From: Hyphomicrobium aestuarii
GTDB lineage: Bacteria > Pseudomonadota > Alphaproteobacteria > Rhizobiales > Hyphomicrobiaceae
Reading direction: 5' to 3'
Assembly: GCA_034408685.1 (NCBI GenBank)
Contig: JAWXCP010000039.1
Coordinates: 534 to 64,533 of the forward strand
Length of the DNA: 64,000 bases
Of the stretch, positions 19,480-38,321 are shown in pieces. A model generated the notes under the pieces. It did not search any database. It was not told the DNA's origin and was given only the letters and a program-made list of their open reading frames with translations. Both the position numbers and the translations under genes were made by a program. How positions within the stretch are numbered: position 1 is the first letter of the stretch; every line of letters begins with the position of its first letter.

Positions 19480-22454
19480 CCAGCCTCAGACGACCAACCG
19501 GCGGCGATATCGACCGCCAGACGACGTTGCGTTTCACGTTCGACGGCACGGAATACGCTGGCCACCCAGGCGATACGTTAGCGTCGGCCTTGCTGGCAAA
19601 CGGCGTGAAGCTTGTCGGCCGCTCGTTCAAATATCACCGCCCGCGCGGCGTCCTGACGGCCGGTTCTGAGGAACCCAACGCGCTTGTGGAATTGCGTCTC
19701 GGATCAGCCCGAGAACCAAACACACGTGCAACCGTCGTTGAACTTTATGACGGCCTCGACGCCCGAAGCCAGAACCGCTGGCCATCGCTCAAATACGACG
19801 CTCTTGCGATCAACTCGCTCGCGGCTCCGATGCTGGTTGCCGGTTTCTACTATAAAACCTTCATGTGGCCGGCCGCGTTCTGGGAGCGCGTCTACGAGCC
19901 GCTGATCCGCCGGGCTGCAGGTATGGGGCGGGCTGCCACGGAACCTGATCCTGACAGCTATGAGAAAGTTTCGGCTCACTGCGACGTGCTCATCGTCGGT
20001 GGCGGACCGGCGGGATTGAGCGCAGCGCTTGCCGCAGCCCGATCGGGCGCACGTGTGATCCTCGCCGACGAGGGGTTTCGGCTGGGCGGCCAGTCGGTGG
20101 CCAGTTCTGCCGCACTCGATAATGGTTCCGTGAGCGACTGGATCGCTCGCGCTGAAGCTGAGCTGCACGCATTGCCGAATAATCGGGTCTTGAAGCGAAC
20201 TACCGTCTTCGGTGTCTACGACAGCGCAACCTACGGCGCCGTTGAACGCGTCAGTGATCACCTGCCGACGCGGATGCCCGGTCACCCGCGACAACGATTG
20301 TGGAGGATCGTGGCGCGCCAAACGGTTCTCGCCTCCGGCGCAACCGAGCGCCCTATCGCGTTCGGCAACAATGACCTGCCAGGCGTGATGCTTGCCTCAG
20401 CGGTCAAAACCTACGTCGACCGGTTTGCCGTGCAAATCGGACAACAAGCGGTTGTTTTCACCAACAACAGCAGTGCGGCCTCGACCATCGCCGCGCTGCA
20501 TCGCGGCGGCGTCTCGATCGCAGCTATCGTCGATGCGCGACTGCAGCCCGACGCCAGCATCACGGCATCCGCACAAGCTGCGGGCGCGCCGCTCCTCGCC
20601 GGTGCGGAGGTGATCGACGCTCACGGCGGCTACGAACTCCGCGCGATCACGGTTCGTAGCCGTGAGGGTCGCTATCAAACCATGAACATCGACTGCGATC
20701 TGCTGGCCGTATCGGGTGGCTGGAACCCGAACCTTCAACTCACAACCCATCTTGGCGGGCGGCCGATCTGGAACGACACCATCGCGGCATTTGTCCCCGA
20801 CAAACTGCCACCGGGTATCTTGGTCGCTGGCGGTGCCGCGGGGCGCTATGATCTCACCGACGCCGTCGCCGATGGCCAACGCGCCGGTGCCCGGTCAGCA
20901 GAACTCTGCGGGTTAACAGCCGCGCTGCCAATCGACATCGATTCCGCGAACAACTATGCGATCGAGCCATTGTGGCGGGTCACAGGCGGCAAAGGTAAGG
21001 CCTTTGTCGATTTCCAGAACGACGTCACCGCCAAGGACATCGAAATCGCAAATCGCGAAGGCTTCAGTGCCGTCGAGCATCTGAAGCGCTACACCACGCT
21101 TGGGATGGCAACCGACCAGGGCAAGACGTCGGGCGTCGTCGGCATGGGCATCCTGGCCGAACACAGCGGCCGCACACTCGCCGAAACGGGCGTCACCGTC
21201 ATGCGTCCGCCGTACACGCCGGTGGCTATCGGCGCGCTCGCCGGCCACCACCGCGGCCCCGACTTCAAGCCGAAGCGCTTGCCGCCATCTTACGCCTGGG
21301 CTAGCGAACAGGGCGCCGTGTTCGTCGAAACCGGACTGTGGATGCGGCCCCAATACTTTCCAAAGCCCGGCGACAAAGACTGGCTGGATGCCGCCGTCCG
21401 CGAGGTGGCCGGGGTGCGCTCCGCTGTCGGCGTTTGCGACGTTTCGACTTTGGGCAAGATCGACATCCAGGGTGCGGACGCGGCGAAGTTTCTCGACGGC
21501 GTTTATGCAAATACGTTTTCAACGCTGCCCATCGGCCGCGCCCGTTACGGGATCATGCTGCGTGAAGACGGCTTCGTACTCGACGACGGCACGACGGCGC
21601 GCTTTGGGCCTCATCATTTCGTGATGACGACAACCACCGCCAATGCAGCCCGTGTGATGATGCACCTCGAATACTGCCATCAGTGGCTGTGGCCGCAGCT
21701 CGATGTCCGCATGGTGGCTGTCTCCGACCAATGGGCGCAGTATGCAGTCGCTGGTCCGCGTTCGCGAGAGCTGTTGGAGCGGATCGCCGATCCCGGCATT
21801 GACCTCTCGAATGCGGCGTTCTCTTACATGTCGGCTGCAGAAATCAGCATTTGCAGCGGCCTTACGGCCCGCCTCTTTCGATTGTCGTTCAGCGGTGAAC
21901 TCGCTTACGAGATCGCTGTTCCAGCGCGCTACGGCGATGACTTGATGCGCAGATTGATAAGCGCTGGAGCGACGCTGGGCGTCATGCCGTATGGGTCCGA
22001 AGCACTCGGTATCATGCGGATTGAAAAGGGGCATGCGGCGGGCGCCGAGCTCAACGGAACAACCACGGCGTCCGATCTCGGGCTCGGTGCGCTCGTCTCG
22101 ACTAAGAAAGACTGCATCGGCCGCGTGCTGTCAGGCCGCCCGGCGCTGGTAGCGCCGGATCGCCCGGTTCTGGTTGGCATCAAGCCGGACGACCCGTCCG
22201 AGCGATTGCGAGGTGGCGCCCATATGGTGCGGGTTGGAACCGCCGTCACAGCGGCCAATGACGAAGGTTACGTCACGTCGACCGCCTATTCGCCGACGCT
22301 GGGCCATTGGATCGGACTTGCTTTCCTAAAGAGCGGCCGCGACCGCCATGGCGAAAAGGTAATGGCCGCCAGCCCCATCCACGGCGAGAGCGTTACGGTC
22401 GAGGTCGTGCCGCCGGTCTTTGTCGACCCTCAAGGAGCCAGATTGCGTGGATAA
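19476..22454 (+). CDS. mgdC: N-methylglutamate dehydrogenase subunit C (sarcosine-oxidase alpha-like, aminomethyltransferase-fold C-terminus)
   Basis: 992 aa with a SoxA-like N-terminus ('FTFDGTEYAGHPGDTLASALLANGV', 'FKYHRPRG'), an FAD/NAD fold 'DVLIVGGGPAGLSAALAAA' and a GcvT-like C-terminal half. Confidence 0.85.
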   Translation: MTSLRRPTGGDIDRQTTLRFTFDGTEYAGHPGDTLASALLANGVKLVGRSFKYHRPRGVLTAGSEEPNALVELRLGSAREPNTRATVVELYDGLDARSQNRWPSLKYDALAINSLAAPMLVAGFYYKTFMWPAAFWERVYEPLIRRAAGMGRAATEPDPDSYEKVSAHCDVLIVGGGPAGLSAALAAARSGARVILADEGFRLGGQSVASSAALDNGSVSDWIARAEAELHALPNNRVLKRTTVFGVYDSATYGAVERVSDHLPTRMPGHPRQRLWRIVARQTVLASGATERPIAFGNNDLPGVMLASAVKTYVDRFAVQIGQQAVVFTNNSSAASTIAALHRGGVSIAAIVDARLQPDASITASAQAAGAPLLAGAEVIDAHGGYELRAITVRSREGRYQTMNIDCDLLAVSGGWNPNLQLTTHLGGRPIWNDTIAAFVPDKLPPGILVAGGAAGRYDLTDAVADGQRAGARSAELCGLTAALPIDIDSANNYAIEPLWRVTGGKGKAFVDFQNDVTAKDIEIANREGFSAVEHLKRYTTLGMATDQGKTSGVVGMGILAEHSGRTLAETGVTVMRPPYTPVAIGALAGHHRGPDFKPKRLPPSYAWASEQGAVFVETGLWMRPQYFPKPGDKDWLDAAVREVAGVRSAVGVCDVSTLGKIDIQGADAAKFLDGVYANTFSTLPIGRARYGIMLREDGFVLDDGTTARFGPHHFVMTTTTANAARVMMHLEYCHQWLWPQLDVRMVAVSDQWAQYAVAGPRSRELLERIADPGIDLSNAAFSYMSAAEISICSGLTARLFRLSFSGELAYEIAVPARYGDDLMRRLISAGATLGVMPYGSEALGIMRIEKGHAAGAELNGTTTASDLGLGALVSTKKDCIGRVLSGRPALVAPDRPVLVGIKPDDPSERLRGGAHMVRVGTAVTAANDEGYVTSTAYSPTLGHWIGLAFLKSGRDRHGEKVMAASPIHGESVTVEVVPPVFVDPQGARLRG

Positions 22455-22989
22455 TAGCACACTGGTCGCGCGCCCAGCGGTTGACGCAGCACGAGCGACG
22501 AAAAAAGTCGCGACATTGCCCGACCGCGCCATCGTTCAAATCGTTTGCGCGCCCGAATGCTGCTCTGACCTTCGCGGTCGAATATCGGCTAGCTTTGGTT
22601 GCGACCTCCCACAAAAACCAAGCCTCGTAGCAGGCAACGGCTTCGAGTTTGCTTGGACTGGTCCAGGCCGATGGATGGCCATCGGAGATGGCGCGCCAGA
22701 AACCTGCATGGCACAGCTTTCAACGGCGCTGGCGGATACGGCCTCACGCGTCGACGTATCCGATGCCTACGCGACGTTTCGCCTGAACGGACCCGACGCA
22801 ACGGGAGCTCTGATGAAGCTCGTTCCGATCGATCTTGAACCGTCAGCGTTCCCATCCAGCGCTGTCGCACTCACCCATATTGCTCACGTTGCCGTCATCA
22901 TTATGAAGCGAGGCCCCGGGCCGGTCTTCGACGTTTTGATCCCCCGCTCGTTCGCTGCGACCATAGTCGGTTGGATCGAACACGCCTGA
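22447..22989 (+). CDS. mgdD: N-methylglutamate dehydrogenase subunit D (sarcosine-oxidase gamma-like)
   Basis: Small SoxG-sized protein after the alpha subunit. The GTG at 22447 has AAGGAG 9 nt upstream. The ORF caller's 22420 start would overlap mgdC by 35 nt. Confidence 0.7.
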   Translation: MDNSTLVARPAVDAARATKKVATLPDRAIVQIVCAPECCSDLRGRISASFGCDLPQKPSLVAGNGFEFAWTGPGRWMAIGDGAPETCMAQLSTALADTASRVDVSDAYATFRLNGPDATGALMKLVPIDLEPSAFPSSAVALTHIAHVAVIIMKRGPGPVFDVLIPRSFAATIVGWIEHA

Positions 22990-23022: not shown

Positions 23023-23970
23023 TCATTCGGGCGGTGTCTGGTCGTCAGGCGACCCCGACATCTCGACAACGACGATGTGCGGGACGGTCAAGGCACCGAG
23101 CGCCATGAAGATCGCCCCGATCAAGGCTGGCCCGGGCGGCAGTGTCGACAACGCGAACGCGCCCACAAGCGTCCCCATAATGGCCAAAGGGGCGTAAGGA
23201 AATGCGGCGCGGAAAAACTCATTGGCAGTTTGAGATCGAAGCAGGTGCCGCGTTTCGATCATGTGGCGTATGGAATGCAGCCCACAGAAGTAGATGAGAA
23301 AAAACATCATTGGGGGCGTCAGCCATGCGAGCCCCAGAACCACGGCTATTTCGGCAGCAGCCCATGGCCTTTGACGTGCGTGCAGCGCAACCACGACGGC
23401 ACTTGCCTGTAGCAATGGCACGGCCGTTGTCGCCATAACCAGCCCAACTGCGTTTGCGATTGCGTCCGGCGCCAGCCACGAGAAAATCTCGACGACCTCT
23501 GCGCGGAAAAGTCCCGCAGGCGCCGTGATCATCGCGGCGGCAACGATCAGCCGGGGCGCCAAGTTCAAGTCGCGGTGCCAATCGCCCGAAAAATGATAGA
23601 TCGACATCAAGAGAAAAACCGGAAGCGCGATGGCGGGCGCAACGAGCCAGAGGGTAAAGAAACCTGCCGCCAGGGCGATGTAACGAAGCAGCATCTCTGG
23701 GATGCCTCGCCCGCCACGATGGCCGCTTTTTGCCGTCCAAACGGCAACATCGAAAGCACCATGCGGAACGCCAAGTAGAAGAATGAGAAATCCGGTTATA
23801 ACTGGATAATCAAGAGGATTGAAAATATTTCCACGCAAGGCGAAGATCAAGATAATTAGCGTTGCAAGGACAAATGCGGCACGGTGCTCGCAATACGCTT
23901 GTGGCCTTAATTCATCGTCGCGCCCGAGTTCTTTGGACGTTTCGCAAGATAACGCTGTAACATTGGTCAT
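23023..23970 (-). CDS. blh: Brp/Blh-family beta-carotene 15,15'-dioxygenase (retinal synthase)
   Basis: Motifs 'LLLGVPHGAFDV', 'LLMSIYHFSGDW', 'FLIYFCGLHSIRH', i.e. four His on TM helices. The ATG at 23970 was chosen so the gene does not overlap the rhodopsin gene. 315 aa. Confidence 0.85.
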   Translation of the reverse strand: MTNVTALSCETSKELGRDDELRPQAYCEHRAAFVLATLIILIFALRGNIFNPLDYPVITGFLILLLGVPHGAFDVAVWTAKSGHRGGRGIPEMLLRYIALAAGFFTLWLVAPAIALPVFLLMSIYHFSGDWHRDLNLAPRLIVAAAMITAPAGLFRAEVVEIFSWLAPDAIANAVGLVMATTAVPLLQASAVVVALHARQRPWAAAEIAVVLGLAWLTPPMMFFLIYFCGLHSIRHMIETRHLLRSQTANEFFRAAFPYAPLAIMGTLVGAFALSTLPPGPALIGAIFMALGALTVPHIVVVEMSGSPDDQTPPE

Positions 23971-24071
23971 CACGTCGCCCAATTTCGCCAGCAACGGCAC
24001 ACGCGACTGCGGCTCCGGCGTTTTGCTGAAAGCTGATGGCGCCGATTGCGCCACCAGCCGCGTTGAGCCCC

Positions 24072-24860
24072 CTATAATGCCGGGGTCGGCACGCCAGTAC
24101 GAGTGGCCACGACCGTGCCGTGTTCTGCTGCCGATTTCCGTACCGCGATAGTATATATGACGACACCGAAGACGGCCTTCGCCACGATGTCGGCGACCGT
24201 ATAGCCAATTTCGACTGCGGTTGCCGCCGTGCCGCCCGTAAGTCCGATCATCGGGAAGACGAAGACCACCGGATAAAACGACCATGAGATGACGGTCAGC
24301 CAACGCGCTGTGTCCACCAGCCCACGGACGTCAGCTGGCTGCTTGGCGATCGCTTCGCCGAGACCAACGAACAATTCGTAGACGATCCAAGCAAACGGGA
24401 TCATGGCCAGTGCCCACCAAACCCAACGGGTCGTCGGATCGCCAGAAATTTCGCCAGGATAACCCAAGACGACCATTATGGCTGCAAGCAAACCGAGCCG
24501 CACGCCTTTCGACCATGTCTCTGAGCGCGACAGACCCATTACCAGAATGAGTTCGACAAGGAGAAGTGGCACGGTAAGCAACCAATCGACGTATCGATAG
24601 GCGTGGTTGAATGCAATGCCAGTAACCGCAATTTGTCCATTCACGACATCATAACTGGCATCCCAGCTCTGAAGAATTCTGACGTAATGATAAAGTGCGA
24701 TTGCCGTGACAAGACCTGTAATCGTAATTGCGGTCTTGTATCGATCACTGACTTGTGATCGGCCGAGCCAAAAGAATAAAGTGGCTGCGCCCATGGTTGC
24801 GATTGCGAACGAAAATGCATTATAGACGAGTTCGTATTGAAGTACAGAAACTTCGGCCAT
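24072..24860 (-). CDS. Microbial rhodopsin, xanthorhodopsin/Gloeobacter-rhodopsin-like, DTE motif (predicted outward proton pump)
   Basis: 'NHAYRYVDWLLTVPLLLVE' supplies D..T......E. 'YHYVRI' supplies the conserved His. The Schiff-base Lys sits in 'YTVADIVAKAVFG'. 'QYELVYNAFSFAIATMGAATLFFW' and 'GYPGEISGD' resemble GR/XR. The ATG at 24860 has AAGGAA 7 nt upstream. 262 aa. Confidence 0.9.
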   Translation of the reverse strand: MAEVSVLQYELVYNAFSFAIATMGAATLFFWLGRSQVSDRYKTAITITGLVTAIALYHYVRILQSWDASYDVVNGQIAVTGIAFNHAYRYVDWLLTVPLLLVELILVMGLSRSETWSKGVRLGLLAAIMVVLGYPGEISGDPTTRWVWWALAMIPFAWIVYELFVGLGEAIAKQPADVRGLVDTARWLTVISWSFYPVVFVFPMIGLTGGTAATAVEIGYTVADIVAKAVFGVVIYTIAVRKSAAEHGTVVATRTGVPTPAL

Positions 24861-25134
24861 GCGTGGTTCCTTACCGCCGCTTTCAACCATCCGGTTGGAG
24901 GGTTGTTGTTCTGAAGCCATTGCGCGTCGGACGTGGGGCATCCAGGCTCGGAAACTACCCAGTGATCCACTTCGGATCGCCGTCTAGACGGGCTGATCGG
25001 GTCACCGCGCGAAGGGCCCGCGCGACTTGATCGTAAATCCGGCAATACGCGACGTGAGTAGTTTCCGAACCTTCTGCCAGTGAACACTGCTGGCCATACG
25101 TAGGCGATCATTGAAGCGGCTCGGGGCTACTCCC

Positions 25135-25191
25135 GACCCGCCGGGCAATAGGCGACCCGCCGGGCAAGAGCCAACCCGCCGGGCAACAGGC
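25135..25191. repeat. Three head-to-tail 19-bp direct repeats in the rhodopsin / CheB-CheR-kinase divergent intergenic region
   Basis: gacccgccgggcaataggc / gacccgccgggcaagagcc / aacccgccgggcaacaggc. The 13-nt core acccgccgggcaa is identical in all three. A degenerate fourth start 'aactcgggt' follows. Confidence 0.85.
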
Positions 25192-25453
25192 AACTCGGGT
25201 GGAATTCTCACGGGGTGTGACCGGTTTCCGGCCGAACAGAAGAGAATGGGCATCTGAAAATCCGCATTTTGCAGATTGCGGCCTCCCCGCGCTGCGAAAC
25301 CGGAACGTGCAAGCCTATCCCGATCATGCCAAGCTTAACCTTGGAACCTTAAACACGCCGACCGATGAAGTTTCAGACACCGCTCCAGAACGGCGAATTC
25401 AGACCATTAGCACCAGCAGATGCCGAACCAGCGAGACCTAGGACGAGTGCCGG

Positions 25454-28400
25454 ATGATGGATGACTTCCTCGTCGTCGCGATCGGCGCCTCAGCTGGCGG
25501 GCTTGAAGCCTGCCGCAAGCTGCTCACAGCCATGCCAGCCCGGTCTGGGACGGCATTCATCGTCGTGCAGCATTTGGACCCCAACCACCCCAGCCTGATG
25601 GTCGACCTGCTCGCCTCTCATACGGACATGCCGGTCCAGCAGGCGACCGAAGGCATGCCGATCAAGCGGGACCATCTCTACGTCATACCGCCCGGTACAG
25701 AACTGTCGGTCGTTGGCGGTGCCCTTCACGTGACGCGACCCGGCCGTCCTCACGGCATGCGACTACCGTTTGATGCGCTGGTCAACTCGCTGGCGGGTGA
25801 GTTTGGAAAGCGCGTTGTCGTCGTATTGCTGTCGGGCACGGGAGCCGACGGCAGTACGGCGCTTCAAACCGTGAAGGCGGAGGTGGGTCTCGTCATCGCA
25901 CAAGATCCAGCCGAAGCGGCGTTCGATGGTATGCCACGCAGCGCCGTAGCTGCTGGCGTCGTCGATCTCGTCCTGCCGGTTGCCGAGATTCCGCACGCGA
26001 TCCTCGACTACGATAAACGAAGAGCCCCCACCGCGCCTGCTGGCGTGGGCGACACGCTCTCGTCCGTCGAAGCCCGTATGCCCGAAATCATCGAGGTGTT
26101 ACGCCAGCGGACCCCCCATGACTTCAGTGGCTACAAGCCAAGCTCATTGTTGCGGCGCATCGAGCGGCGGATGGCGGCCGTCACTGGCTGTGAAAACGAC
26201 GTCGATGGCTACCTCGCACGGCTCATGAGCGAGCCATCCGAACTCGAACATCTTGCCAACTACATTTTTGTCAATGTGACGCGGTTTTTCCGCGACGGCG
26301 ACGTTTTTGAGTTGCTGGCCAACACGGTCATCCCCGACATCGTCGCCCACCGGGTCGCCGATCAGACGCTTCGGATCTGGGTCGCTGGATGCAGCACCGG
26401 GGAGGAGGCCTACTCGCTGGTGATGCTGATCCTCGAACATACCACGCGGAGCGGTAGCCCATTTCAATTCCAGGTTTTCGCGTCCGATGCGGATGCAGAG
26501 GCGATCGCGTTTGCACGAGAGGGCTATTATCCCGAAAGCATCTCGGCCGACATTTCGCCAGAACGGCTCGCGCGCTTTTTCATCCGGGAAAAACAGGGCT
26601 ACCGCGTCTCGTCGGAGCTGCGCGGCGCCGTCATATTCGCCTGTCAGGACTTGCTCGTCGATCCGCCGTTCTCCCGCCTGGATATGGTCTCGTGCCGGAA
26701 CTTGTTGATCTACCTTGGCCACGACGCCCAGACCCGGGTCATCGACGTATTTCACTTCGCGCTTCGAGAAGGCGGCATTCTGCTGCTCGGCAATGCAGAA
26801 ACGATCGGTGCAACTGACGACCGTTTCGAGTCCATATTGGACTCGAGCAGAATTTACCGGCATGTGGCGCAATGCCGGCCGGGCGAGGTCCGTTTTGCGA
26901 TCGGCACGGAGGACGGCGCGCGTGGTCAACCACGCGCGTTACTCCCCGGAAAGCCCCGAATGCGCCCACTTGAGTTGGCTGAACTTTGCCGGCGCATGGT
27001 CATCGAGAATTTTGCGCCAGCCGCCGTACTGATCAATCATCGCCACGAGTGCCTGTATTCGGTCGGGCCAGTCGAGCGCTTCTTGCGTGTAGCTCCAGGG
27101 CACCCAACGCTTGATCTGCTCGATATGGCGCCGCAACCCATGCGCACACGCCTCAGGTTGGTCATCGCTCAGGCCACCGATACCCGTTCGCGCGCCCAAG
27201 TTAGCCGGCTCCGGATCAGCCAGGAGGACGGCGACATCGAGTTCGCGATCGAGGTCATACCGGGCCCCGACGACACTGAAAAATTGATGCTGGTATGCTT
27301 CAAAGAAGTGGCAAAGCACAGCAATCGTCCGCCATTGGGCGATGGGGAGACACCAGCAAATCCGACAGATCTTCCTCGCGTCGCAGCGCTTGAAATCGAA
27401 ATCGAGGCGACGCGGTCTGAGCTGCGGCACACCATCTTTGATCTCGAGCAATCGCGTGAAGAACAGAGGGCCATCAGCGAGGAGGCTTCTTCCGTTGCCG
27501 AAGAATACCAATCGACCAACGAAGAGCTCCTCACATCCAAGGAAGAGTTGCAGTCGCTGAACGAGGAACTTACGGCCCTCAATGGGCAGCTGCAGGAAAC
27601 TCTCGACCGTCAGAAAACGACTTCGGATTATTTGCAGAATATTCTCAATAGCACGGATATCGCGACGATATTCCTCGATGGTAAACTTCGTATCCGGTTC
27701 TTTACGCCCGCTACCAAGCAATTGTTCAGCGTTATTCCCAGCGATATCGGTCGCCCGCTTGGCGATCTCAGCTCGTTGTCTGCCGACAGCGCAGCGCTCG
27801 ATGACGCCCGGACCGTGCTCGAAACCCTTGTCCCGATGGATCGCGAGATCGAGATGCCGGACGGCGTCTGGTTCATGCGGCGCATCCAGCCCTACCGGAC
27901 CCACAACAATGGCATCGAGGGCGTTGTCATCACCTTTGACGATATCAGCCAGCGAAAGATCACAGCGGCAGCGTTGCAGGCGGCAAAAGAGCAGGCGCAG
28001 GCTGCCAATGCTGCCAAATCAAGGTTCCTCGCGGTCGCCAGCCATGATTTGCGGCAACCGTTGCAGTCGCTAGTGCTGATCCAGGGTTTGTTGGCCAAGC
28101 AGGTGACGGGAGACAAGCCGAAGCGGCTTTTGGATCGGCTTGATGAAACCTTGTCAGCAATGGCGGGGATGCTGAACACGTTGCTCGATATCAATCAAAT
28201 TGAAATCGGTGCTGTCGAGCCCGTTGTGGTCAATAGCCCGATCAATAGTTTGCTCGTGCAGATGCGCGATGAGTTTACATACCACGCGCATGCCAGGGGG
28301 CTCCAACTGCGGATCGTCGAGTCGAGCCTGACGGTCACCACCGATCCACGGCTGCTCGAACAGGTGCTGCGCAATCTTTTGTCCAACGCGATAAAATATA

Positions 28401-29803
28401 CCGAAAAAGGAAAAGTCGTCCTAGGCTGCCGCCGTCGGGCGGGTGTTGTCAGCGTCGAGGTTTGGGATAGCGGGATTGGAATACCGAAGACGGAGATCAA
28501 AAGTATCTTTGACGAATATTATCAGATTGGAAATGCAGCGCGTCAACGCAGCCAGGGTCTTGGTCTGGGACTATCCATCGTACAGCGATTGGCTCATCTG
28601 CTCAAGCACCGCATCGACGTGCGCTCGATGCCTGGCCGCGGGTCAGGCTTTGCTATCGAAATTCAGCATAAACCCGATCAGCCTGCGTCGATTGGGCATA
28701 TCCATATCGTCGCCGATGAACTGGGCGAGCCGGAGCCAAGCCACCGCAGGGCATTGATCCTCATCGTCGAGGACGACCCTGAGGTAGGCGACCTGCTTGA
28801 GGATTTTCTGGTCAACGAGGGCCATCAGGCTCTGATTGCAACCGGCGGCCCGGCTGCGGAACTGTTGATGTCGCGGACGGCGCTACAGCCCGACCTGTTG
28901 ATAACCGACTATAACTTGCCAGGCGGGATGAATGGCCTCGAACTGGCGGAGCGGGTGAGATCCCGCCTCGATCCGGCCTTTCCCATTATTGTTCTGACGG
29001 GCGACATTTCGTCAGCGACGCTTCGCAATATTGGTCAGAGCCGTTGCGTTCACGTCAACAAGCCTGTGAAAATCGATGACCTGTCCGCGATGATCCAGCG
29101 GTTGCTACGGCGCGATCAAGCCAGCAAGGTGCTGGTAGAGGGCGGGGAACCGGTTGTTCCGTTGCCCTCGGGGCCGTCGATGGTGTACGTTGTTGACGAT
29201 GACCGTCATGTCAGAGATCAGGTGCGCGAGGTGCTCGAGGACGGCGGGATGACAGTGGCCGACTTTGCTACGGCCGAGGCCTTTCTCGCAGCGTTCAAAC
29301 CCGGCGGCAGCGAGGCTTGTCTGCTGATCGATGCCTACCTGCCCGGCATGAGCGGTGTCGATGCGCTGATGCAACTCCGCCAAGCGCGCCATCGTCTACC
29401 CACCATCATGATGACAGGCTTCGGCGACGTCGGTATCGCGGTCGACGCAATGAAATCAGGCGCAATAGACTTTATCGAGAAGCCGGTGGCGCGCGGCGAA
29501 CTACTTGGCGCCATTTCGCGGGCACTGGGGATGTCGCGGGACCGCAACAAGTTGGAAGCGTGGCAGGCCGCTGCGGCTAGTCAACTTGCGGACCTGACAA
29601 GCCGACAACGTCAGATCATGGATCTTGTTCTCGCTGGCCATCCGAGCAAAAACATCGCGGCTGATCTCGGGATCAGCCAACGAACGGTCGAAAACCATCG
29701 CGCGGCAATCATGGAGCGGACCGGCGCGAAGTCGCTACCGGAATTGGCGCGGATTGCGGTGGCTGCAAATTTGGGGGATGCGGCAGACGGCGTTGTCAAA
29801 TAG
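25454..29803 (+). CDS. 1449-aa multidomain signalling protein: CheB methylesterase, CheR methyltransferase, coiled coil, PAS, HisKA/HATPase, REC, FixJ-type REC, LuxR HTH
   Basis: CheB: 'VVAIGASAGGLEA....FIVVQHLDP.H'. CheR: 'TRFFRD', 'RIWVAGCSTGEEAYSL', 'SCRNLLIYL'. PAS after a coiled coil. H-box 'SRFLAVASHDLRQPL' and G-boxes 'WDSGIGIP', 'GLGLGLSIV'. REC1 'LILIVEDDPEVG...ITDYNLPGGMNG'. REC2 'MVYVVDDDRHVR...LIDAYLPGMSG'. HTH 'LTSRQRQIMDLVLAGHPSKNIAADLGISQRTVENHRAAIM'. Confidence 0.9.
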   Translation: MMDDFLVVAIGASAGGLEACRKLLTAMPARSGTAFIVVQHLDPNHPSLMVDLLASHTDMPVQQATEGMPIKRDHLYVIPPGTELSVVGGALHVTRPGRPHGMRLPFDALVNSLAGEFGKRVVVVLLSGTGADGSTALQTVKAEVGLVIAQDPAEAAFDGMPRSAVAAGVVDLVLPVAEIPHAILDYDKRRAPTAPAGVGDTLSSVEARMPEIIEVLRQRTPHDFSGYKPSSLLRRIERRMAAVTGCENDVDGYLARLMSEPSELEHLANYIFVNVTRFFRDGDVFELLANTVIPDIVAHRVADQTLRIWVAGCSTGEEAYSLVMLILEHTTRSGSPFQFQVFASDADAEAIAFAREGYYPESISADISPERLARFFIREKQGYRVSSELRGAVIFACQDLLVDPPFSRLDMVSCRNLLIYLGHDAQTRVIDVFHFALREGGILLLGNAETIGATDDRFESILDSSRIYRHVAQCRPGEVRFAIGTEDGARGQPRALLPGKPRMRPLELAELCRRMVIENFAPAAVLINHRHECLYSVGPVERFLRVAPGHPTLDLLDMAPQPMRTRLRLVIAQATDTRSRAQVSRLRISQEDGDIEFAIEVIPGPDDTEKLMLVCFKEVAKHSNRPPLGDGETPANPTDLPRVAALEIEIEATRSELRHTIFDLEQSREEQRAISEEASSVAEEYQSTNEELLTSKEELQSLNEELTALNGQLQETLDRQKTTSDYLQNILNSTDIATIFLDGKLRIRFFTPATKQLFSVIPSDIGRPLGDLSSLSADSAALDDARTVLETLVPMDREIEMPDGVWFMRRIQPYRTHNNGIEGVVITFDDISQRKITAAALQAAKEQAQAANAAKSRFLAVASHDLRQPLQSLVLIQGLLAKQVTGDKPKRLLDRLDETLSAMAGMLNTLLDINQIEIGAVEPVVVNSPINSLLVQMRDEFTYHAHARGLQLRIVESSLTVTTDPRLLEQVLRNLLSNAIKYTEKGKVVLGCRRRAGVVSVEVWDSGIGIPKTEIKSIFDEYYQIGNAARQRSQGLGLGLSIVQRLAHLLKHRIDVRSMPGRGSGFAIEIQHKPDQPASIGHIHIVADELGEPEPSHRRALILIVEDDPEVGDLLEDFLVNEGHQALIATGGPAAELLMSRTALQPDLLITDYNLPGGMNGLELAERVRSRLDPAFPIIVLTGDISSATLRNIGQSRCVHVNKPVKIDDLSAMIQRLLRRDQASKVLVEGGEPVVPLPSGPSMVYVVDDDRHVRDQVREVLEDGGMTVADFATAEAFLAAFKPGGSEACLLIDAYLPGMSGVDALMQLRQARHRLPTIMMTGFGDVGIAVDAMKSGAIDFIEKPVARGELLGAISRALGMSRDRNKLEAWQAAAASQLADLTSRQRQIMDLVLAGHPSKNIAADLGISQRTVENHRAAIMERTGAKSLPELARIAVAANLGDAADGVVK

Positions 29804-29931: not shown

Positions 29932-30345
29932 TTACTTAACGCGCGGGAGATCCTTGGCCTGTGCGGCTGTCATGTTGATCGTCGCGCGATCGCCAGCCAA
30001 CTTGAATTGCGCTGGCATCAAACGAACGCGGGTCTCACCGAGACCAAAGTATCCGCCAATGTCAGCGTGCATTTCGCTGACCTTGTCGTCGGTGCCGCGC
30101 GCGAAAGCTGCGACTTCACCGATGTTTGTGCCGTCGCTGCTATAGATTGGCTTGTTGACCCACGACTTTGCCTGCTCGGCTGTGAGCGTGATGCTTGGGG
30201 TTGTCGCCAATGCGCCCGCAGTCGGCGCGGTTGCGCCAGTGGTCGGCGCGGTTGCGGCTGGCGGCGTGACGACGGTGCTCTGAGCAAGTGCCGGGGCGGC
30301 AATGGCGGTGGCAAGGACGATTGCCAGCGTGATCGAACGCATCAT
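29932..30345 (-). CDS. Secreted PRC-barrel domain protein
   Basis: Signal peptide 'MMRSITLAIVLATAIAAPALAQ', an Ala/Thr/Pro linker, then 'WVNKPIYSSDGTNIGEVAAFARGTDDKVSEMHADIGGYFGLGETRVRLMPAQF', which is PRC-barrel-like. GGAG upstream of the ATG. Confidence 0.8.
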   Translation of the reverse strand: MMRSITLAIVLATAIAAPALAQSTVVTPPAATAPTTGATAPTAGALATTPSITLTAEQAKSWVNKPIYSSDGTNIGEVAAFARGTDDKVSEMHADIGGYFGLGETRVRLMPAQFKLAGDRATINMTAAQAKDLPRVK

Positions 30346-30422
30346 AATTAAAACTCCGTAGGTTATTTCTTCGAACACCATCTGCACACGTATGACGCTC
30401 GAGACATAGCCTCGGACAATAC

Positions 30423-31556
30423 CTACTCGGCGACCGCCTGATCGTGAGACCAATGGCGCAGCGCCATGCCGTCGCGTTTCTGTTTGATTTGGACCTCCAG
30501 ATGCTGGCGCTGCAGCAGTCCGGTTTGGGTATCGAGGTGCCCCACAACGGAAGCGGAGTTGATGGCAGCTGCAATCGCCGCGTGGTCGATACCGACGCCC
30601 GATTGTATAAAGGCTGCAAATGTCGCGTTGAATGCGTCGCCAGCGCCGGCGGTGCCGACGATATCCACGGGCAGGGCGGGGCAAAGGGTGAGGTGTGATG
30701 GCGTGCCGATATAGGCGCCATCCTTACCATCGGTGACGACGACCCACCGCGGGCCAAGTGTCGTCAACGTCTGGCAAAATGCTGCCAGCGCCATAGTGTG
30801 CCCATCACCGCACGCGAAGCCGCAGTGGACCAGCTCTGGCGTGTCTCGAGGGACGGGCGGGCGTGTTTGAAAGTCAGGCTCATGGCACGGGCTGCAGTGC
30901 CCGCCCCGCGTCAGGAGGCCTGGCACGAGTGCCGCTGCTTCTGTGCGGTTCAGCGAAAGAATGTCGATATTGGCAAGCGCGGTCCAGAAAGCGCCCTGGC
31001 GCGTGGACAGTTGCCGGATGCCGGGGTTGGCCGCGACCAGCGCACCGGCTGATTTCGCCCGCGATACGATGTCTGGGAAGCAGTCGGCCGATTGATCTGA
31101 AAGGCTCGCCACGTAGACGAGGTCAAACGCAAATGAGACGTTGTCCAGATCGTCAAGCGTCAATGTTGTGTTGGCCCCGCGAAACGTAATAACCGCCGTA
31201 TTGCGATCATGGGCTGCGATGAAAATAGATGTCCCTGTCGGAGCCTGATCATGGTGGAGAGCGTAACGGGGCGAGACCCCCTCGGCTGAGAGTTGCGAGA
31301 GGATCATGCTCGCGCCAAGATCGCGGCCGATTTTGACGACGGTAGAAACGTCATGTCCGAGCCGGGCCATGGCGACGCCGGTATTGATTGCCCCGCCGCC
31401 GCAATGAACGGAGACTGCCTTCGCTTCGCTTTTCCGGCCAACTTCGAGCAGGAGATACGACGCGTCGGCGTTGGACAGCGTCATTTGCTCGATCAGGTGG
31501 TCGTCGATCGTCACGATCGTGTCGACGGTTGCTCCGCCGATCGTAAGGACCTTCAT
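30423..31556 (-). CDS. PfkB/ribokinase-family sugar kinase with a Cys/His-rich insertion
   Basis: 'MKVLTIGGATVDTIV', 'GGGAINTGVAMARLG' and the C-terminal signature 'DIVGTAGAGDAFNATFAA'. At 377 aa it is longer than usual because of an insert around 'GGHCSPCHEPDF...VHCGFACGDGH'. Confidence 0.85.
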   Translation of the reverse strand: MKVLTIGGATVDTIVTIDDHLIEQMTLSNADASYLLLEVGRKSEAKAVSVHCGGGAINTGVAMARLGHDVSTVVKIGRDLGASMILSQLSAEGVSPRYALHHDQAPTGTSIFIAAHDRNTAVITFRGANTTLTLDDLDNVSFAFDLVYVASLSDQSADCFPDIVSRAKSAGALVAANPGIRQLSTRQGAFWTALANIDILSLNRTEAAALVPGLLTRGGHCSPCHEPDFQTRPPVPRDTPELVHCGFACGDGHTMALAAFCQTLTTLGPRWVVVTDGKDGAYIGTPSHLTLCPALPVDIVGTAGAGDAFNATFAAFIQSGVGIDHAAIAAAINSASVVGHLDTQTGLLQRQHLEVQIKQKRDGMALRHWSHDQAVAE

Positions 31557-32351: not shown

Positions 32352-32609
32352 TTAGGCGATGCGACGGACGAAGCTGATCAAGATCAAAAGGACGATCGCG
32401 CCGAGGGTTGCCGAGATGATCTGACCGGTCAGGTCAGAGCCGGGGAATATCCCCAGGCGCGGCAGCAAGGCGCCGCCGAGGACTGCGCCGACGATGCCGA
32501 TTACGATGTTGCCGATGAGGCCAAAGCCGTAGCCCTTGACAACGACGCCGGCGAGGAAGCCAGCGACCGCACCGATGACGAGCCAGATGATAAGCGCTTC
32601 TGCAGGCAT
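32352..32609 (-). CDS. GlsB/YeaQ/YmgE-family (transglycosylase-associated) small membrane stress protein
   Basis: 85 aa, 'LIIWLVIGAVAGFLAGVVVKGYGFGLIGNIVIGIVGAVLGGAL'. GGAGA RBS. Confidence 0.85.
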   Translation of the reverse strand: MPAEALIIWLVIGAVAGFLAGVVVKGYGFGLIGNIVIGIVGAVLGGALLPRLGIFPGSDLTGQIISATLGAIVLLILISFVRRIA

Positions 32610-32938
32610 GAGCGTTCTCCACGAATGAAATGCCAGTCGGTGAGCTGCGGCGGCGCCGGGGCCGTTGCTTGCACGAGCAACGGTTAGTTGGCGGGCCGCC
32701 AGACTGGTCCATCTCATTGCTGCACCCTGGGGAGCCTGCGTGCGAGAGTCGGAAAGTACCCAGCCCCGCGCGATACGGAACGAGGCGCAATAGTTTCAGA
32801 TTGAGTAGACTCCGAGGCTCAACACGCCATCGGCAACTTCTTAGGCTCATGTTCCTGCCATTGCGCTTTCGGCTGTCATCAGCGCCTGAAAAGGCCTGTT
32901 GCATCTCCGGAAGGCACCTTGAGGAGTTGTTGCGTATC

Positions 32939-38217: not shown

Positions 38218-38321
38218 TAGAGGCCTTCCGCTTTAAATGGAATCGCGGAAGGACTCTAACTTATTTGTTTGTCGTGCTTCTTTTCGGAAAACCGGTTCCC
38301 ACTTTTCCAGAAGCACTCTAG
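38218..38321 (+). repeat. ~104-bp REP-like structured repeat, copy A (inverted copy at 49702..49805)
   Basis: 'tagaggccttccgctttaaatggaatcgcggaaggactctaacttatttgtttgtcgtgcttcttttcggaaaaccggttcccacttttccagaagcactctag'. It is nearly identical to the reverse complement of 49702-49805 and contains the hairpin aggccttccgc/gcggaaggact. Confidence 0.85.

What the first reader, a model, noticed from the sequence alone, without database searches (positions are those of the whole stretch)
25454..29803. An entire phosphorelay in one polypeptide: CheB, CheR, PAS, HK, REC, FixJ-type REC and LuxR HTH (1449 aa)
CheB/CheR-PAS-hybrid-kinase proteins are a known but functionally obscure family. In my recollection they are usually followed by a separate FixJ/NarL-type regulator gene. 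Here the ORF runs without a stop from the hybrid kinase's receiver straight into '...PSGPSMVYVVDDDRHVR...'. That stretch looks like the Met-start of a formerly independent FixJ-like regulator and ends in a LuxR HTH. Sensor, methylation/demethylation modules, kinase, two receivers and the DNA-binding output are therefore covalently linked. A DNA-binding domain tethered to a ~160-kDa protein raises mechanistic questions. It could be released by proteolysis, made by internal translation initiation at the SMVYVV Met, or function as a true one-component mega-protein.
Basis: partly seen in the sequence, partly recalled or inferred. Interest (0 to 1): 0.65.

Follow-up and report, generated by a model that had tools for sequence, protein, structure and literature searches.

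The report
Conserved kinase fused to FixJ regulator
The 1449-residue gene is real, but the fusion of sensor kinase and FixJ-type DNA-binding regulator is an old, conserved design shared by many alphaproteobacteria, not a recent accident, and its probable DNA targets sit around the gene, one of them in front of a light-driven proton pump operon.

Summary
Observation confirmed. Window 25454-29803 (+) is one uninterrupted 1449-aa ORF: CheB, CheR, cryptic PAS, 93-residue helix, PAS_10, HisKA/HATPase, REC1, REC2, LuxR/GerE HTH.

- Independent metagenome assemblies carry the junction without indels.
- The 120 best database homologues (56-99% identity) all have the same architecture.
- 59 of 80 species genomes show an uninterrupted ORF of at least 1430 codons.
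- The 'start' Met is Val/Ile/Thr elsewhere; ATG occurs only in this lineage.

It is also not a full His-Asp-His-Asp relay, because no Hpt domain is present or linked.

New here: an 18-bp motif, TGAGTAGTTTCCGAnnCT, matches the published FixJ SELEX consensus GTAGTTTCCC. It occurs 227 times around these genes in 80 loci (0-1 in shuffles). It is absent from loci of unfused relatives. In the window it precedes a xanthorhodopsin-blh operon, the kinase gene and three small envelope or unannotated genes.

Best model: a soluble one-polypeptide two-component system with a FixJ-type output. CheR/CheB possibly methylate its own invariant EE-heptad helix.

The architecture is ordinary; the family is uncharacterised.

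The parts
25454..29803 (+). Whole gene: 1449-aa soluble CheB-CheR-PAS-HK-REC-REC-HTH protein
   Evidence: ORF; translation; Pfam. No membrane segment: best 19-residue Kyte-Doolittle mean is 1.63, inside the CheB fold.
25475..26002 (+). CheB methylesterase domain (aa 8-183), without the N-terminal receiver of canonical CheB
   Evidence: Pfam E 1e-52. The Ser13, His40 and Asp132 motif columns are conserved wherever aligned: His40 and Asp132 in 121/121 sequences, Ser13 in 113/121 with the other 8 gapped at the N terminus.
26084..26836 (+). CheR methyltransferase (aa 211-461)
   Evidence: Pfam CheR_N plus CheR, E 1.5e-50. The SAM-motif AGCSTGEE is conserved. PDB CheR hits at E 2e-25.
26966..27307 (+). 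Cryptic PAS-like alpha/beta domain (aa 505-618), flanked by disordered linkers 446-501 and 622-640
   Evidence: AlphaFold2 secondary structure and pLDDT. Not detected by Pfam.
27374..27652 (+). Single 93-residue helix (aa 641-733) carrying six EE pairs in exact heptad register (669/670 to 704/705). Candidate self-methylation helix.
   Evidence: AF2 helix H641-733; heptads printed. The four C-terminal pairs (683/684 to 704/705) are invariant in the 109-sequence alignment, and 669/670 and 676/677 are at least 90% conserved. The pattern is kept in 150 diverse representatives: E in 141-148 of 151 rows at the four C-terminal pairs and in 115-138 at the two N-terminal pairs.
27632..27946 (+). PAS_10 sensor domain (aa 727-831)
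   Evidence: Pfam E 3e-26; AF2 PAS fold 737-830.
28013..28666 (+). Histidine kinase core: HisKA (854-917, His864) and HATPase_c (964-1071)
   Evidence: Pfam. H, N, G1 and G2 boxes are conserved in 120-121 of 121 sequences. With REC1 it matches the NCBIfam NahK/ErcS family at 328.6 bits, below the cut-off of 400.
28754..29107 (+). REC1 (aa 1101-1218), Asp1152 acceptor, no aromatic switch residue (position 1200 is Q/H)
   Evidence: Criterion taken from PMC9981736.
29108..29179 (+). Pro/Ala-rich variable linker (aa 1219-1242) between REC1 and REC2
   Evidence: Mean identity to homologues 9%. pLDDT below 50 for aa 1226-1238.
29180..29521 (+). REC2 (aa 1243-1356), FixJ-type receiver: Asp1293, Thr1321, Phe1340, Lys1343. 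Its first codon is the lineage-specific ATG.
29594..29758 (+). LuxR/GerE HTH (aa 1381-1435). It is the most conserved part of the protein.
   Evidence: Pfam GerE. 84% mean identity to 120 homologues. 34/66 identical to the S. meliloti FixJ DNA-binding domain 1x3u, E 1.4e-15.
25055..25072 (+). FixJ-type box TGAGTAGTTTCCGAACCT, 31.5 of 32.1 bits, pointing at the kinase gene 381 nt upstream of its ATG
   Evidence: PWM scan; motif derivation.
24944..24961 (-). FixJ-type box TGGGTAGTTTCCGAGCCT, 28.8 bits, pointing at the xanthorhodopsin gene (ATG 24860)
23023..24860 (-). Predicted target operon: xanthorhodopsin-type proton pump (24072-24860) and Blh beta-carotene dioxygenase (23023-24054)
   Evidence: Pfam. 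PDB psXR E 1.5e-73 and xanthorhodopsin 3ddl E 9e-70. TIGR03753 at 149 bits, cut-off 95. Gene calls in the twin locus.
30408..30425 (-). Weaker box (17.2 bits) 63 nt upstream of the 137-aa gene 29932-30345 (-), whose N terminus is hydrophobic and signal-peptide-like
   Evidence: The same protein family follows a box in 11 loci.
32745..32819 (.). Divergent pair of boxes, 32745-32762 (-) and 32802-32819 (+), 21.6 bits each. They lie between the Transgly_assoc gene 32352-32609 (-) and a 105-aa ORF 32939-33256 (+).
   Evidence: The same divergent pair is conserved at the syntenic place in the Hyphomicrobium locus L002, 14757-14834.
25136..25194 (+). 19-bp tandem repeat x3.1 (ACCCGCCGGGCAACAGGCA) in the long leader between the (+) box and the kinase ATG. 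Role unknown.

Best explanation
The gene encodes an ordinary member of a large, old alphaproteobacterial subfamily. In this subfamily a soluble CheB-CheR-PAS hybrid histidine kinase is permanently fused to a FixJ-type response regulator.

Shown by computation:
- The reading frame is real.
- The architecture and every catalytic or phospho-acceptor residue are conserved.
- The REC1-REC2 linker is a variable, disordered Pro/Ala stretch without a conserved start codon.
- An 18-bp motif containing the FixJ SELEX core GTAGTTTCC is massively enriched around these genes.

Inferred:
- The protein works as a full-length dimer, a cytoplasmic analogue of Bacteroides hybrid two-component systems.
- PAS input sets autophosphorylation of His864.
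- The phosphoryl group reaches Asp1293 of REC2. It does so either directly from the DHp, with REC1 (Asp1152, no aromatic switch residue) as a competing sink or buffer, or through an unlinked Hpt.
- Phosphorylated REC2 frees or dimerises the HTH. The HTH binds TGAGTAGTTTCCGAnnCT centred about 42 bp upstream of the predicted start sites and activates transcription.
- In the window the predicted local regulon is the xanthorhodopsin-blh operon, the kinase gene itself, a 137-aa protein with a signal-peptide-like N terminus, a Transgly_assoc membrane protein and a 105-aa ORF.
- In about 30 other loci the box drives a divergent single-domain receiver, which would give negative feedback as a phosphate sink.
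- The CheR and CheB domains most likely methylate and demethylate the protein's own EE-heptad helix between the two PAS domains, giving MCP-like adaptation without an MCP.
For: Reality of the frame.

Conservation of the fusion:
- 120/120 best homologues have the same Pfam set.
- The 80 best loci, from many alphaproteobacterial genera, match continuously across the junction (query residues about 3-328 or beyond). They were kept from 473 candidate stretches confirmed by tblastn.
- 59 of these 80 loci have uninterrupted ORFs of at least 1430 codons.
- About 38 of the 150 best 50%-identity representatives are fused, and they form the closest group.

Residues: the CheB triad, CheR SAM motif, H/N/G boxes and both receiver acceptor Asp and Lys are invariant, with the other motif residues near-invariant. 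The HTH is the most conserved part, at 84%.

Junction: the Met column is V83/I24/T7/M2; the codons are mostly not start codons; the linker shows 9% identity and is disordered in AF2.

Output:
- The HTH is 52% identical to the S. meliloti FixJ DNA-binding domain.
- The motif core equals 9 of 10 positions of the FixJ SELEX consensus GTAGTTTCCC, as reported in PMC4999443.
- There are 227 sites of at least 17 bits in 884 kb of fused-kinase loci against 0-1 in shuffles, and only one lies inside the kinase ORF.
- 54 loci have one within 400 nt upstream.
- A -10-like C/T-A/T-A lies about 23 nt downstream of the motif.
- An ORF follows at a median of 95 nt.
- No box is found in the six loci (four lineages, about 55 kb) of unfused relatives.
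- Five boxes cluster within 8 kb around the gene in the window, against 0-1 hits of at least 12 bits per shuffled 64-kb window.

Self-methylation idea:
- One 93-residue helix carries six EE pairs spaced exactly 7 apart, in the pattern E-E-x-x-[A/S/T]-x.
- The pattern is kept in 150 diverse CheB/CheR-PAS_10 proteins whatever their output domains; the four C-terminal pairs are near-invariant.
- CheB here lacks its usual regulatory receiver.

No linked Hpt.

Precedent for a DNA-binding domain working while tethered to a kinase: Bacteroides HTCS (PMC11253607).
Against: - Nothing here is experimental, and no RNA run holds the locus.
- The box is asymmetric, whereas GerE-type domains usually bind dyads.
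- In most loci the nearest box points away from the kinase gene, so autoregulation is not general.
- A separate canonical FixJ paralogue could be the protein that binds these boxes.
- The HK-REC1 core is most like NahK/ErcS hybrid kinases. From memory, those signal through a free Hpt protein, which would favour a four-step relay over direct transfer.
- AlphaFold inter-domain confidence is low (pTM 0.42 and 0.34). It says nothing about which receiver docks on the DHp, or whether the helix reaches the CheR/CheB sites.
- The helix has no detectable sequence similarity to chemoreceptors in the PDB.
- Gln-encoded sites, a hallmark of CheB substrates, are rare in it.
Confidence: 0.6

Rival explanations
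1. The fusion is a recent event or an assembly or sequencing artefact that removed a stop between a hybrid kinase gene and a FixJ-like gene.
For: Unfused relatives exist (65 of 150 representatives). One has a neighbouring separate FixJ-type gene that starts 'MEGTVFVVDDN...'. The window has an ATG exactly at the REC2 start.
Against: The junction is identical, with no indels, in independently assembled contigs from four public metagenome runs that were laid on it; at least 10 runs hold the stretch. It is also present in a second NCBI assembly. The same continuous frame occurs in 120/120 top homologues and in 59 of 80 species genomes. In all 73 loci where the REC2 start was located, the 30 upstream codons are open. 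ATG at that codon is confined to this lineage.
Confidence: 0.01
2. It is a true four-step phosphorelay that uses an unlinked Hpt protein: His864 to Asp1152 (REC1), to a free Hpt, to Asp1293 (REC2). REC1 would then be an obligatory intermediate rather than a sink.
For: REC1 lacks the aromatic switch residue (Q/H at position 1200), as described for intermediary receivers (PMC9981736). HK-REC1 resembles the NahK/ErcS hybrid kinase family (328.6 bits). From memory, its Pseudomonas member signals via HptB.
Against: No Hpt domain is in the polypeptide, and the AF2 models show no unassigned helical bundle. No HxxKG-type ORF is found in the 64-kb window or in about 90 related loci. No Hpt-like family appears among conserved neighbours. 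REC2 is tethered about 25 residues from REC1, so its local concentration near the DHp is very high. From memory, hybrid FixL-type kinases that act without an Hpt are known.
Confidence: 0.3
3. The DNA-binding module acts as a free protein of about 22 kDa. It would be made by internal translation initiation at Met1243 or released by proteolysis in the Pro/Ala linker.
For: An ATG sits at the REC2 start in the window. The linker is disordered and exposed. A 160-kDa dimer on DNA seems cumbersome.
Against: The codon is GTC, ATC, ACC, GCG or CTC in most genomes, so initiation there cannot be the family's mechanism. No GGAG/GAGG/AGGA core lies in the 20 nt upstream in the window. The linker has 9% identity and no conserved cleavage motif. 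Bacteroides HTCS show that tethered DNA-binding domains can function and be regulated in the full-length protein.
Confidence: 0.08
4. The GTAGTTTCC boxes are read by another regulator, such as a canonical FixJ or another LuxR-family protein encoded elsewhere. The fused HTH would then have different or no targets, and the clustering near the kinase gene would reflect a shared stress island.
For: The core equals the consensus selected for S. meliloti FixJ itself. Many box-preceded genes (CsbD, Transgly_assoc) and frequent neighbours (Dps) are general stress-type genes that could belong to a wider regulon.
Against: Boxes occur at 2-5 per locus in 73 of 81 fused-kinase loci and at none in loci of the closest unfused relatives, which keep the same divergent receiver gene. 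The fused HTH is under the strongest constraint of the whole protein (84% identity) and resembles the FixJ DNA-binding domain. Published FixJ targets are fixK and nifA, not these genes.
Confidence: 0.12

Closest known systems
CheB/CheR fusion hybrid histidine kinases (KEGG K13924 'two-component system, chemotaxis family, CheB/CheR fusion protein')
   Same: N-terminal CheB methylesterase without receiver, CheR, the NEEL/EE-heptad helix, PAS_10, HisKA/HATPase and a receiver. The source names are exactly this. 65 of 150 representatives stop after REC1.
   Different: The window protein belongs to the sub-clade that adds a complete FixJ-type regulator (REC2 plus GerE HTH) at the C terminus. No functional study of either form was found in ten literature searches; the first of these was rejected for its syntax. 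A genome paper merely notes a 'CheB-CheR hybrid'.
FixL-FixJ two-component system of rhizobia
   Same: The last 200 residues match full-length FixJ (5xso E 4e-38; NCBIfam FixJ 220 bits). The HTH is 52% identical to the S. meliloti FixJ DNA-binding domain. The associated DNA motif contains the FixJ SELEX core GTAGTTTCC. The sensor is PAS-linked.
   Different: Kinase and regulator are one polypeptide. No haem-PAS FixL signature was tested or claimed. There is an extra receiver and CheB/CheR modules. Predicted targets are a rhodopsin operon and small stress or envelope genes rather than fixK/nifA. The score is below the FixJ equivalog cut-off (255).
Bacteroides hybrid two-component systems (HTCS)
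   Same: Sensor, histidine kinase, receiver and DNA-binding domain lie in one chain and act without release. They raise the same question of how the tethered DNA-binding domain is kept off (PMC11253607).
   Different: HTCS are membrane proteins with periplasmic glycan sensors, a single receiver and, from memory, an AraC-type HTH. This protein is soluble, PAS-sensed, has two receivers, a LuxR/GerE HTH and CheB/CheR domains. The two are unrelated in phylogeny.
NahK/ErcS' family hybrid kinases (NCBIfam NF041832/NF041831)
   Same: The best NCBIfam match for the HK-REC1 core covers residues 850-1217 over the whole 370-position model, E 5e-98.
   Different: The score of 328.6 is below the cut-off of 400. 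The N-terminal sensor region is different, and those kinases have no fused regulator.
Chemoreceptor (MCP) adaptation by CheR/CheB
   Same: Both enzyme domains have intact catalytic motifs, and there is a long helix with heptad-spaced Glu-Glu pairs followed by small residues. From memory, this resembles the E-E-x-x-A-S/T methylation sites of Tar/Tsr.
   Different: There is no sequence similarity to MCP signalling domains. No CheA/CheW was seen next to the gene in the window or the loci examined. Gln-encoded sites are rare. Methylation of this helix is untested.

Membership tests
CheB/CheR fusion sensor kinase family (K13924-type) | CheB methylesterase domain with Ser-His-Asp triad | tested here: met
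   PF01339 E 1e-52. The Ser13, His40 and Asp132 motif columns are invariant wherever aligned.
CheB/CheR fusion sensor kinase family (K13924-type) | CheR_N plus CheR SAM-dependent methyltransferase domain directly after CheB | tested here: met
   PF03705 and PF01739. The AGCSTGEE motif is conserved.
CheB/CheR fusion sensor kinase family (K13924-type) | Conserved NEEL/EE-heptad helix followed by PAS_10 | tested here: met
Hybrid histidine kinase | HisKA with phospho-acceptor His, HATPase_c with N, G1 and G2 boxes, and a C-terminal receiver with acceptor Asp | tested here: met
   His864, Asn978, DxGxG, GxGxG and Asp1152 are all conserved.
Multistep His-Asp-His-Asp phosphorelay contained in one polypeptide | An Hpt (second His) domain between the two receivers | tested here: not met
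   No Hpt family in Pfam at E<=0.01. Every AF2 segment is assigned to another domain or is disordered. No HxxKG ORF is found nearby.
FixJ/NarL-type response regulator | Receiver with acidic pocket, acceptor Asp, Thr, aromatic switch residue and Lys, followed by a GerE/LuxR HTH | tested here: met
   DDD1248-1250, D1293, T1321, F1340, K1343; GerE at 1381-1435. 5xso E 4e-38.
FixJ orthologue (NCBIfam NF006900 equivalog) | Score above the curated cut-off (255 bits) | tested here: not met
   220 bits. It is FixJ-like, not a FixJ orthologue.
FixJ-type DNA recognition | Binding to GTAGTTTCCC-type sites | tested here: inconclusive
   The motif with this core is strongly enriched next to the genes and absent from unfused controls. 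Physical binding is not testable here.
Bacteroides HTCS | Transmembrane protein with periplasmic sensor, and an AraC-type HTH output | tested here: not met
   No membrane segment. The HTH is GerE/LuxR. It works like an HTCS in being one chain but is not a member.
Methyl-accepting chemotaxis protein-like substrate | Homology to the MCP signalling domain | tested here: not met
   No MCP hit even at E<=10, and no MCPsignal family in Pfam.
Methyl-accepting chemotaxis protein-like substrate | Reversible Glu methylation by CheR/CheB | not testable with these tools
   Only the pattern of heptad-spaced EE pairs is seen.

The most novel reading that the evidence does not exclude
The family is a self-contained cytoplasmic 'sense, adapt, transcribe' device. 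CheR and CheB, freed from chemoreceptors, would write and erase methyl marks on the protein's own invariant EE-heptad helix to tune a PAS-controlled kinase. The fused FixJ-type domain would then directly switch on a compact regulon marked by GTAGTTTCC boxes. In this microbial-mat bacterium that regulon has captured a xanthorhodopsin-retinal operon, placing a light-driven proton pump under two-component control with methylation memory.
Probability: 0.25. Interest if true: 0.75.

Novelty: new member of a known kind. Interest (0 to 1): 0.4.

Why it matters
The fusion is the standard architecture of a populous protein family that databases already list as 'CheB/CheR fusion protein'. The puzzle of a DNA-binding domain tethered to a kinase has a studied precedent in Bacteroides HTCS.

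What is worth keeping is the family itself. It is widespread in soil, water and plant-associated alphaproteobacteria. No functional study turned up in the open literature searched here. It now has a concrete, testable output: an 18-bp FixJ-type box found 2-5 times around most copies of the gene.

This gives a simple experimental handle for asking what CheR and CheB do outside chemotaxis: reporter fusions, EMSA, and mutants in cultured carriers such as Xanthobacter, Devosia, Inquilinus or Nitrospirillum. It also predicts a regulator for a xanthorhodopsin operon, and regulators of microbial rhodopsin expression are, as far as I know, poorly characterised.

Tried and rejected
- Literature: ten full-text searches (CheB/CheR fusion, cheBR, K13924, the STNEEL motif and others) found no functional study of the family. 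The first search failed on syntax.
- RNA evidence for internal initiation or start sites: no public RNA run holds the locus.
- Rfam on the 700-bp leader and intergenic region: nothing.
- Consensus sigma-70 promoter scan of 24700-25500: none found. The -10-like element is inferred only from the aligned sites.
- AlphaFold of both halves: domain boundaries and linkers are clear. The pTM values of 0.42 and 0.34 are too low to use domain docking, and no coordinates were available to measure contacts.
- The idea that the EE helix is a diverged MCP fragment was rejected. Only generic coiled-coil matches were found.
- The idea that the xanthorhodopsin adjacency is a conserved feature of the family was rejected. 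The 70%-identical Hyphomicrobium locus has a small ORF plus Dps/ferritin there instead, and most loci have a single-domain receiver.
- The idea that unfused relatives are 'usually followed' by a FixJ gene: it is adjacent in only one of four lineages examined, and there it lies upstream.
- Search for a linked Hpt by motif: only six evidently spurious ORFs.
- An EcfG-type or other ECF promoter as the explanation of the motif: no conserved -10 lies at 16-17 nt in either direction.

Full report

Yes. The window holds one open reading frame at 25454..29803 on the + strand. It is 1449 codons long with an ATG start, and an in-frame TAG lies twelve bases upstream.

Pfam places the following on it in order:
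- CheB_methylest, 8-183
- CheR_N, 211-261
- CheR, 274-461
- PAS_10, 727-831
- HisKA, 854-917
- HATPase_c, 964-1071
- two Response_reg stretches, the second at 1244-1354
- GerE, 1381-1435

The quoted junction peptide is there, and its Met codon is window 29180-29182. The last 200 residues match full-length FixJ (PDB 5xso, E 4e-38). They also match the NCBIfam FixJ equivalog at 220 bits, a little under its cut-off of 255.

AlphaFold2 with a 109-sequence alignment adds two things Pfam does not name. One is a PAS-like domain at 505-618. The other is a single 93-residue helix at 641-733. The model also shows disordered linkers at 446-501, 622-640, 1076-1095 and 1226-1238. The protein has no membrane segment.

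One correction to the title: there is no Hpt domain, so this is not a complete His-Asp-His-Asp relay.

**2. Artefact or recent fusion?**

Neither.

- The 1-kb stretch across the junction is held by at least ten microbial-mat metagenome runs and a 2024 sediment run.
- Contigs assembled independently from four of these runs cover it with no indel.
- The only differences, in the sediment run, are V1201V, G1324S and I1338M.
- A separate NCBI assembly (GCA_038209865.1) encodes a 99%-identical protein of the same length in the same gene neighbourhood.

Beyond this lineage:
- The 120 best of at least 8000 database hits are 1403-1502 aa, 56-73% identical, and all carry the same set of Pfam domains including GerE.
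- In species-representative genomes, the 350-residue REC1-REC2-HTH query matched continuously across the junction in the 80 best loci. These were kept from 473 candidate stretches confirmed by tblastn.
- The genera include Hyphomicrobium, Filomicrobium, Inquilinus, Rhodoblastus, Labrys, Devosia, Xanthobacter, Azorhizobium, Mesorhizobium, Nitrospirillum, Acidocella, Roseiarcus, Parvibaculum and Sphingomonas.
- 59 of these 80 loci have an uninterrupted frame of at least 1430 codons. Most of the rest are cut by contig ends or interrupted elsewhere in MAG contigs.
- In all 73 loci where the REC2 start could be located, the 30 codons before it are open.

An exhaustive HMMER search of 1.84 billion cluster representatives shows both forms. 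Among the 150 best, about 38 are fused, 65 stop after REC1 and 20 stop after the kinase. Nearly all complete proteins above about 43% identity to the query are fused, so the fused proteins form the query's own coherent subfamily.

**3. The 'start-like' Met.**

In the alignment of 121 proteins that column is Val 83, Ile 24, Thr 7, Met 2. At the DNA level the codon is GTC (29), GTG (8), ATC (7), ACC (6), GCG (4), CTC (3) and others. ATG occurs only in the window and its twin.

The residue is simply the first hydrophobic residue of strand beta-1 of REC2. The 24-residue linker before it is Pro/Ala-rich, has 9% mean identity and is disordered in the model. No GGAG/GAGG/AGGA core lies in the 20 nt upstream.

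Internal initiation or a conserved cleavage site therefore cannot be the family's mechanism. A lineage-specific extra product cannot be excluded without protein data.

**4. Deep origin.**

One unfused relative (P0151, 42% identical, locus L086) has a separate 212-aa REC-GerE gene 800 nt upstream. That gene begins MEGTVFVVDDN and is 41% identical to the fused module (E 9e-45).

Three other unfused lineages have no such neighbour. So 'usually followed by a FixJ gene' is not borne out in this small sample.

**5. What the parts look like.**

All catalytic and acceptor residues are conserved in the 121 sequences:
- CheB Ser13/His40/Asp132
- the CheR AGCSTGEE motif
- His864
- the N, G1 and G2 boxes
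- REC1 Asp1107/Asp1152/Thr1182/Lys1203
- REC2 Asp1248-1250/Asp1293/Thr1321/Lys1343

All modules are thus under selection as working parts.

REC1 has Gln/His at the position three residues before the Lys, where allosteric receivers have Tyr/Phe. REC2 has Phe1340 there. By the criteria discussed for intermediary versus terminal receivers (PMC9981736), REC1 looks like a phosphoryl shuttle or sink and REC2 like a genuine regulator receiver.

The HK-REC1 core is most like the NahK/ErcS hybrid kinase family (328.6 bits, cut-off 400).

No Hpt is linked:
- None is in the protein.
- There is no HxxKG-type ORF in the window or in about 90 related loci.
- None appears among the conserved neighbour families.

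The most conserved segment of the whole protein is the HTH (84% mean identity). It is 34/66 identical to the S. meliloti FixJ DNA-binding domain 1x3u.

**6. A DNA motif that goes with the fused protein.**

Such a constrained HTH implies a constrained operator, so I compared the 350 nt upstream of the gene in 65 species loci. One 12-mer family stood out, present in up to 19 loci against at most 3 in shuffles.

Aligned, it is TGAGTAGTTTCCGAnnCT, followed about 23 nt later by a weak C/T-A/T-A. From memory, that weak element resembles the GCTA-type -10 of alphaproteobacteria. This geometry centres the motif near -42 of the predicted start, a typical activator position.

The core GTAGTTTCC is nine of the ten positions of the consensus GTAGTTTCCC selected in vitro for S. 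meliloti FixJ. It also resembles the fixK site TAAGTAATTTCCCTTA. Both are as summarised in PMC4999443.

A position matrix of the 18 positions gave these results:
- 227 sites of at least 17 bits in 884 kb of 80 fused-kinase loci, against 0-1 in shuffled copies.
- Only one site lies inside the 4.3-kb kinase ORF.
- 54 loci have a site within 400 nt upstream, always pointing away from the kinase gene.
- An ORF follows a site at a median of 95 nt.
- Most loci have 2-5 sites.

As a natural control, the six loci (about 55 kb) of four unfused lineages have no site of at least 12 bits. This includes the closest one (50% identity), which keeps the same divergent receiver gene.

Genes that follow the sites:
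- A single-domain receiver, consensus ...PHLFVSGD...LQKPF, with no aromatic switch residue (about 30 loci).
- A protein of about 140 aa with a hydrophobic, signal-peptide-like N terminus (11 loci).
- CsbD (6 loci).
- Ysc84 (5 loci).
- SPFH, an LTXXQ/Spy-like protein, a Cu-ATPase and Transgly_assoc in a few loci each. These last names, apart from Transgly_assoc, are read from the sequences and were not checked against Pfam.

**7. The window's own sites.**

| Site | Strand | Bits | Gene it points at |
|---|---|---|---|
| 24944-24961 | - | 28.8 | Xanthorhodopsin gene, ATG 24860 |
| 25055-25072 | + | 31.5 of a possible 32.1 | Kinase gene, 381 nt upstream of its ATG |
| 30408-30425 | - | 17.2 | 137-aa gene 29932-30345 |
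| 32745-32762 | - | 21.6 | Transgly_assoc gene 32352-32609 |
| 32802-32819 | + | 21.6 | 105-aa ORF 32939-33256 |
| 39106-39123 | - | 16.2 (weak) | ECF sigma gene, 243 nt upstream |

Shuffled windows give 0-1 hits of at least 12 bits.

The rhodopsin is of the xanthorhodopsin family (psXR E 1.5e-73, 3ddl E 9e-70). It has a D-T-E helix-C motif. It is followed by a Blh beta-carotene dioxygenase.

This pair sits in a stretch of lower G+C, 0.555-0.573 against about 0.62. It is absent from the 70%-identical Hyphomicrobium locus, where a box precedes a small ORF and a Dps/ferritin gene instead. So the rhodopsin association is a lineage-specific recruitment into the box-marked gene set, not a family feature.

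**8. CheR/CheB and the helix.**

The 93-residue helix carries six Glu-Glu pairs exactly seven residues apart:
- EEQRAIS
- EEASSVA
- EEYQSTN
- EELLTSK
- EELQSLN
- EELTALN

The pattern is E-E-x-x-small-x. From memory of Tar/Tsr, it is very like chemoreceptor methylation sites. These positions are near-invariant in the close family. They are also conserved in 150 diverse CheB/CheR-PAS_10 representatives whatever their C-terminal output. E occupies 141-148 of 151 rows at the four C-terminal pairs and 115-138 at the two N-terminal pairs.

The CheB domain lacks its usual regulatory receiver.

I therefore think the enzymes act on this helix of their own dimer, tuning signal passage from the first PAS-like domain to PAS_10 and the kinase. 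Several observations weigh against this:
- The helix has no detectable similarity to MCPs.
- Gln at these positions is rare.
- The AlphaFold domain arrangement is too uncertain to show contact.

This step is inference only.

**9. Most likely mechanism.**

Steps shown: a real, conserved, single-chain CheB-CheR-PAS-HK-REC-REC-HTH protein with intact active sites, and a FixJ-type box enriched around the fused genes only.

Steps inferred:
- A full-length soluble dimer.
- PAS input controls His864 autophosphorylation.
- Phosphoryl transfer to Asp1293, either directly with REC1 as sink or buffer (my preference, about even odds) or through an unlinked Hpt (about 0.3).
- Phospho-REC2 releases or dimerises the HTH, which activates box promoters.
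- Where present, the induced single-domain receiver drains phosphate as negative feedback.
- Methylation of the EE helix provides slower adaptation (about 0.4).

The signal is unknown. The predicted targets are a proton pump, Dps, CsbD and small membrane or secreted proteins. They suggest energy, redox or general stress rather than chemotaxis.

**10. Comparison and novelty.**

The protein is a member of the CheB/CheR-fusion kinase family and carries a FixJ-family (not FixJ-orthologous) regulator. It works like a Bacteroides HTCS in having kinase and regulator in one chain (PMC11253607), but it is not one.

The architecture is already present in hundreds of database entries, so the finding as given is a new member of a known kind.

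Ten literature searches found no functional work on the family. The first of them failed on syntax. As far as I can tell, the box and the predicted regulon, including the xanthorhodopsin operon, are new computational leads.

Interest: 0.4.

Noticed in passing
window 23023-24860 (-): A xanthorhodopsin-family proton pump (D-T-E motif) plus a Blh retinal-forming dioxygenase lie in a low-G+C stretch (0.555-0.573) between the sarcosine-oxidase-like genes and the kinase gene. The pair is present in the 99% twin assembly but absent from the 70%-identical Hyphomicrobium locus. It looks like an acquired cassette that landed behind a FixJ-type box.
   Followed up: partly
window 25136-25194 (+): A 19-bp tandem repeat x3.1 (ACCCGCCGGGCAACAGGCA), each copy with a CCCG-c-CGGG mini-palindrome. 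The 13-nt core occurs three times in the window, only here. It lies in the roughly 350-nt leader between the (+) box and the kinase ATG. There is no Rfam match and its role is unknown.
   Followed up: partly
window 32745-32819; L002 14757-14834: A back-to-back (divergent) pair of FixJ-type boxes about 40 bp apart lies between a Transgly_assoc gene and a small ORF. It is conserved at the syntenic position in the Hyphomicrobium sp. relative.
   Followed up: partly
window 38318-38863 (-) and 39106-39123 (-): An ECF-type sigma factor gene has a weak box (16.2 bits) 243 nt upstream. ECF sigma genes are also among the recurrent neighbours of the kinase in six other loci.
   Followed up: no
window 19476-22989 (+); L001 1-7536: The genes upstream are a Glu-synthase-like gene, a glutamine-synthetase-like gene, DAO, SoxD, a 992-aa SoxA-like gene and a SoxG-like gene. 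From memory, this order is that of the N-methylglutamate pathway for methylamine use, which would fit a methylotrophic Hyphomicrobiaceae-like organism.
   Followed up: no
L003-L082, upstream of the kinase genes (e.g. L074 1459-1881 -): About half of the fused-kinase loci have a divergent single-domain receiver gene directly behind the box. Its beta-4 motif F-x-S-G-D recalls the FxSGY/'FATGUY' motif of phosphoryl-shuttling receivers but lacks the Tyr. The window lineage has the rhodopsin operon at that place instead.
   Followed up: partly
L002 12292-13407 (-): In the Hyphomicrobium relative the PfkB kinase gene downstream of the mega-kinase is called as two pieces (161 and 155 aa). In the window it is one 377-aa ORF (30423-31556). 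This is probably a frameshift or a pseudogene in that MAG.
   Followed up: no
L059 and L062 (titles): Two loci carrying the alphaproteobacterial-type fused kinase sit on short contigs of MAGs labelled Bifidobacterium and Nitrosovibrio. This is most likely binning contamination.
   Followed up: no
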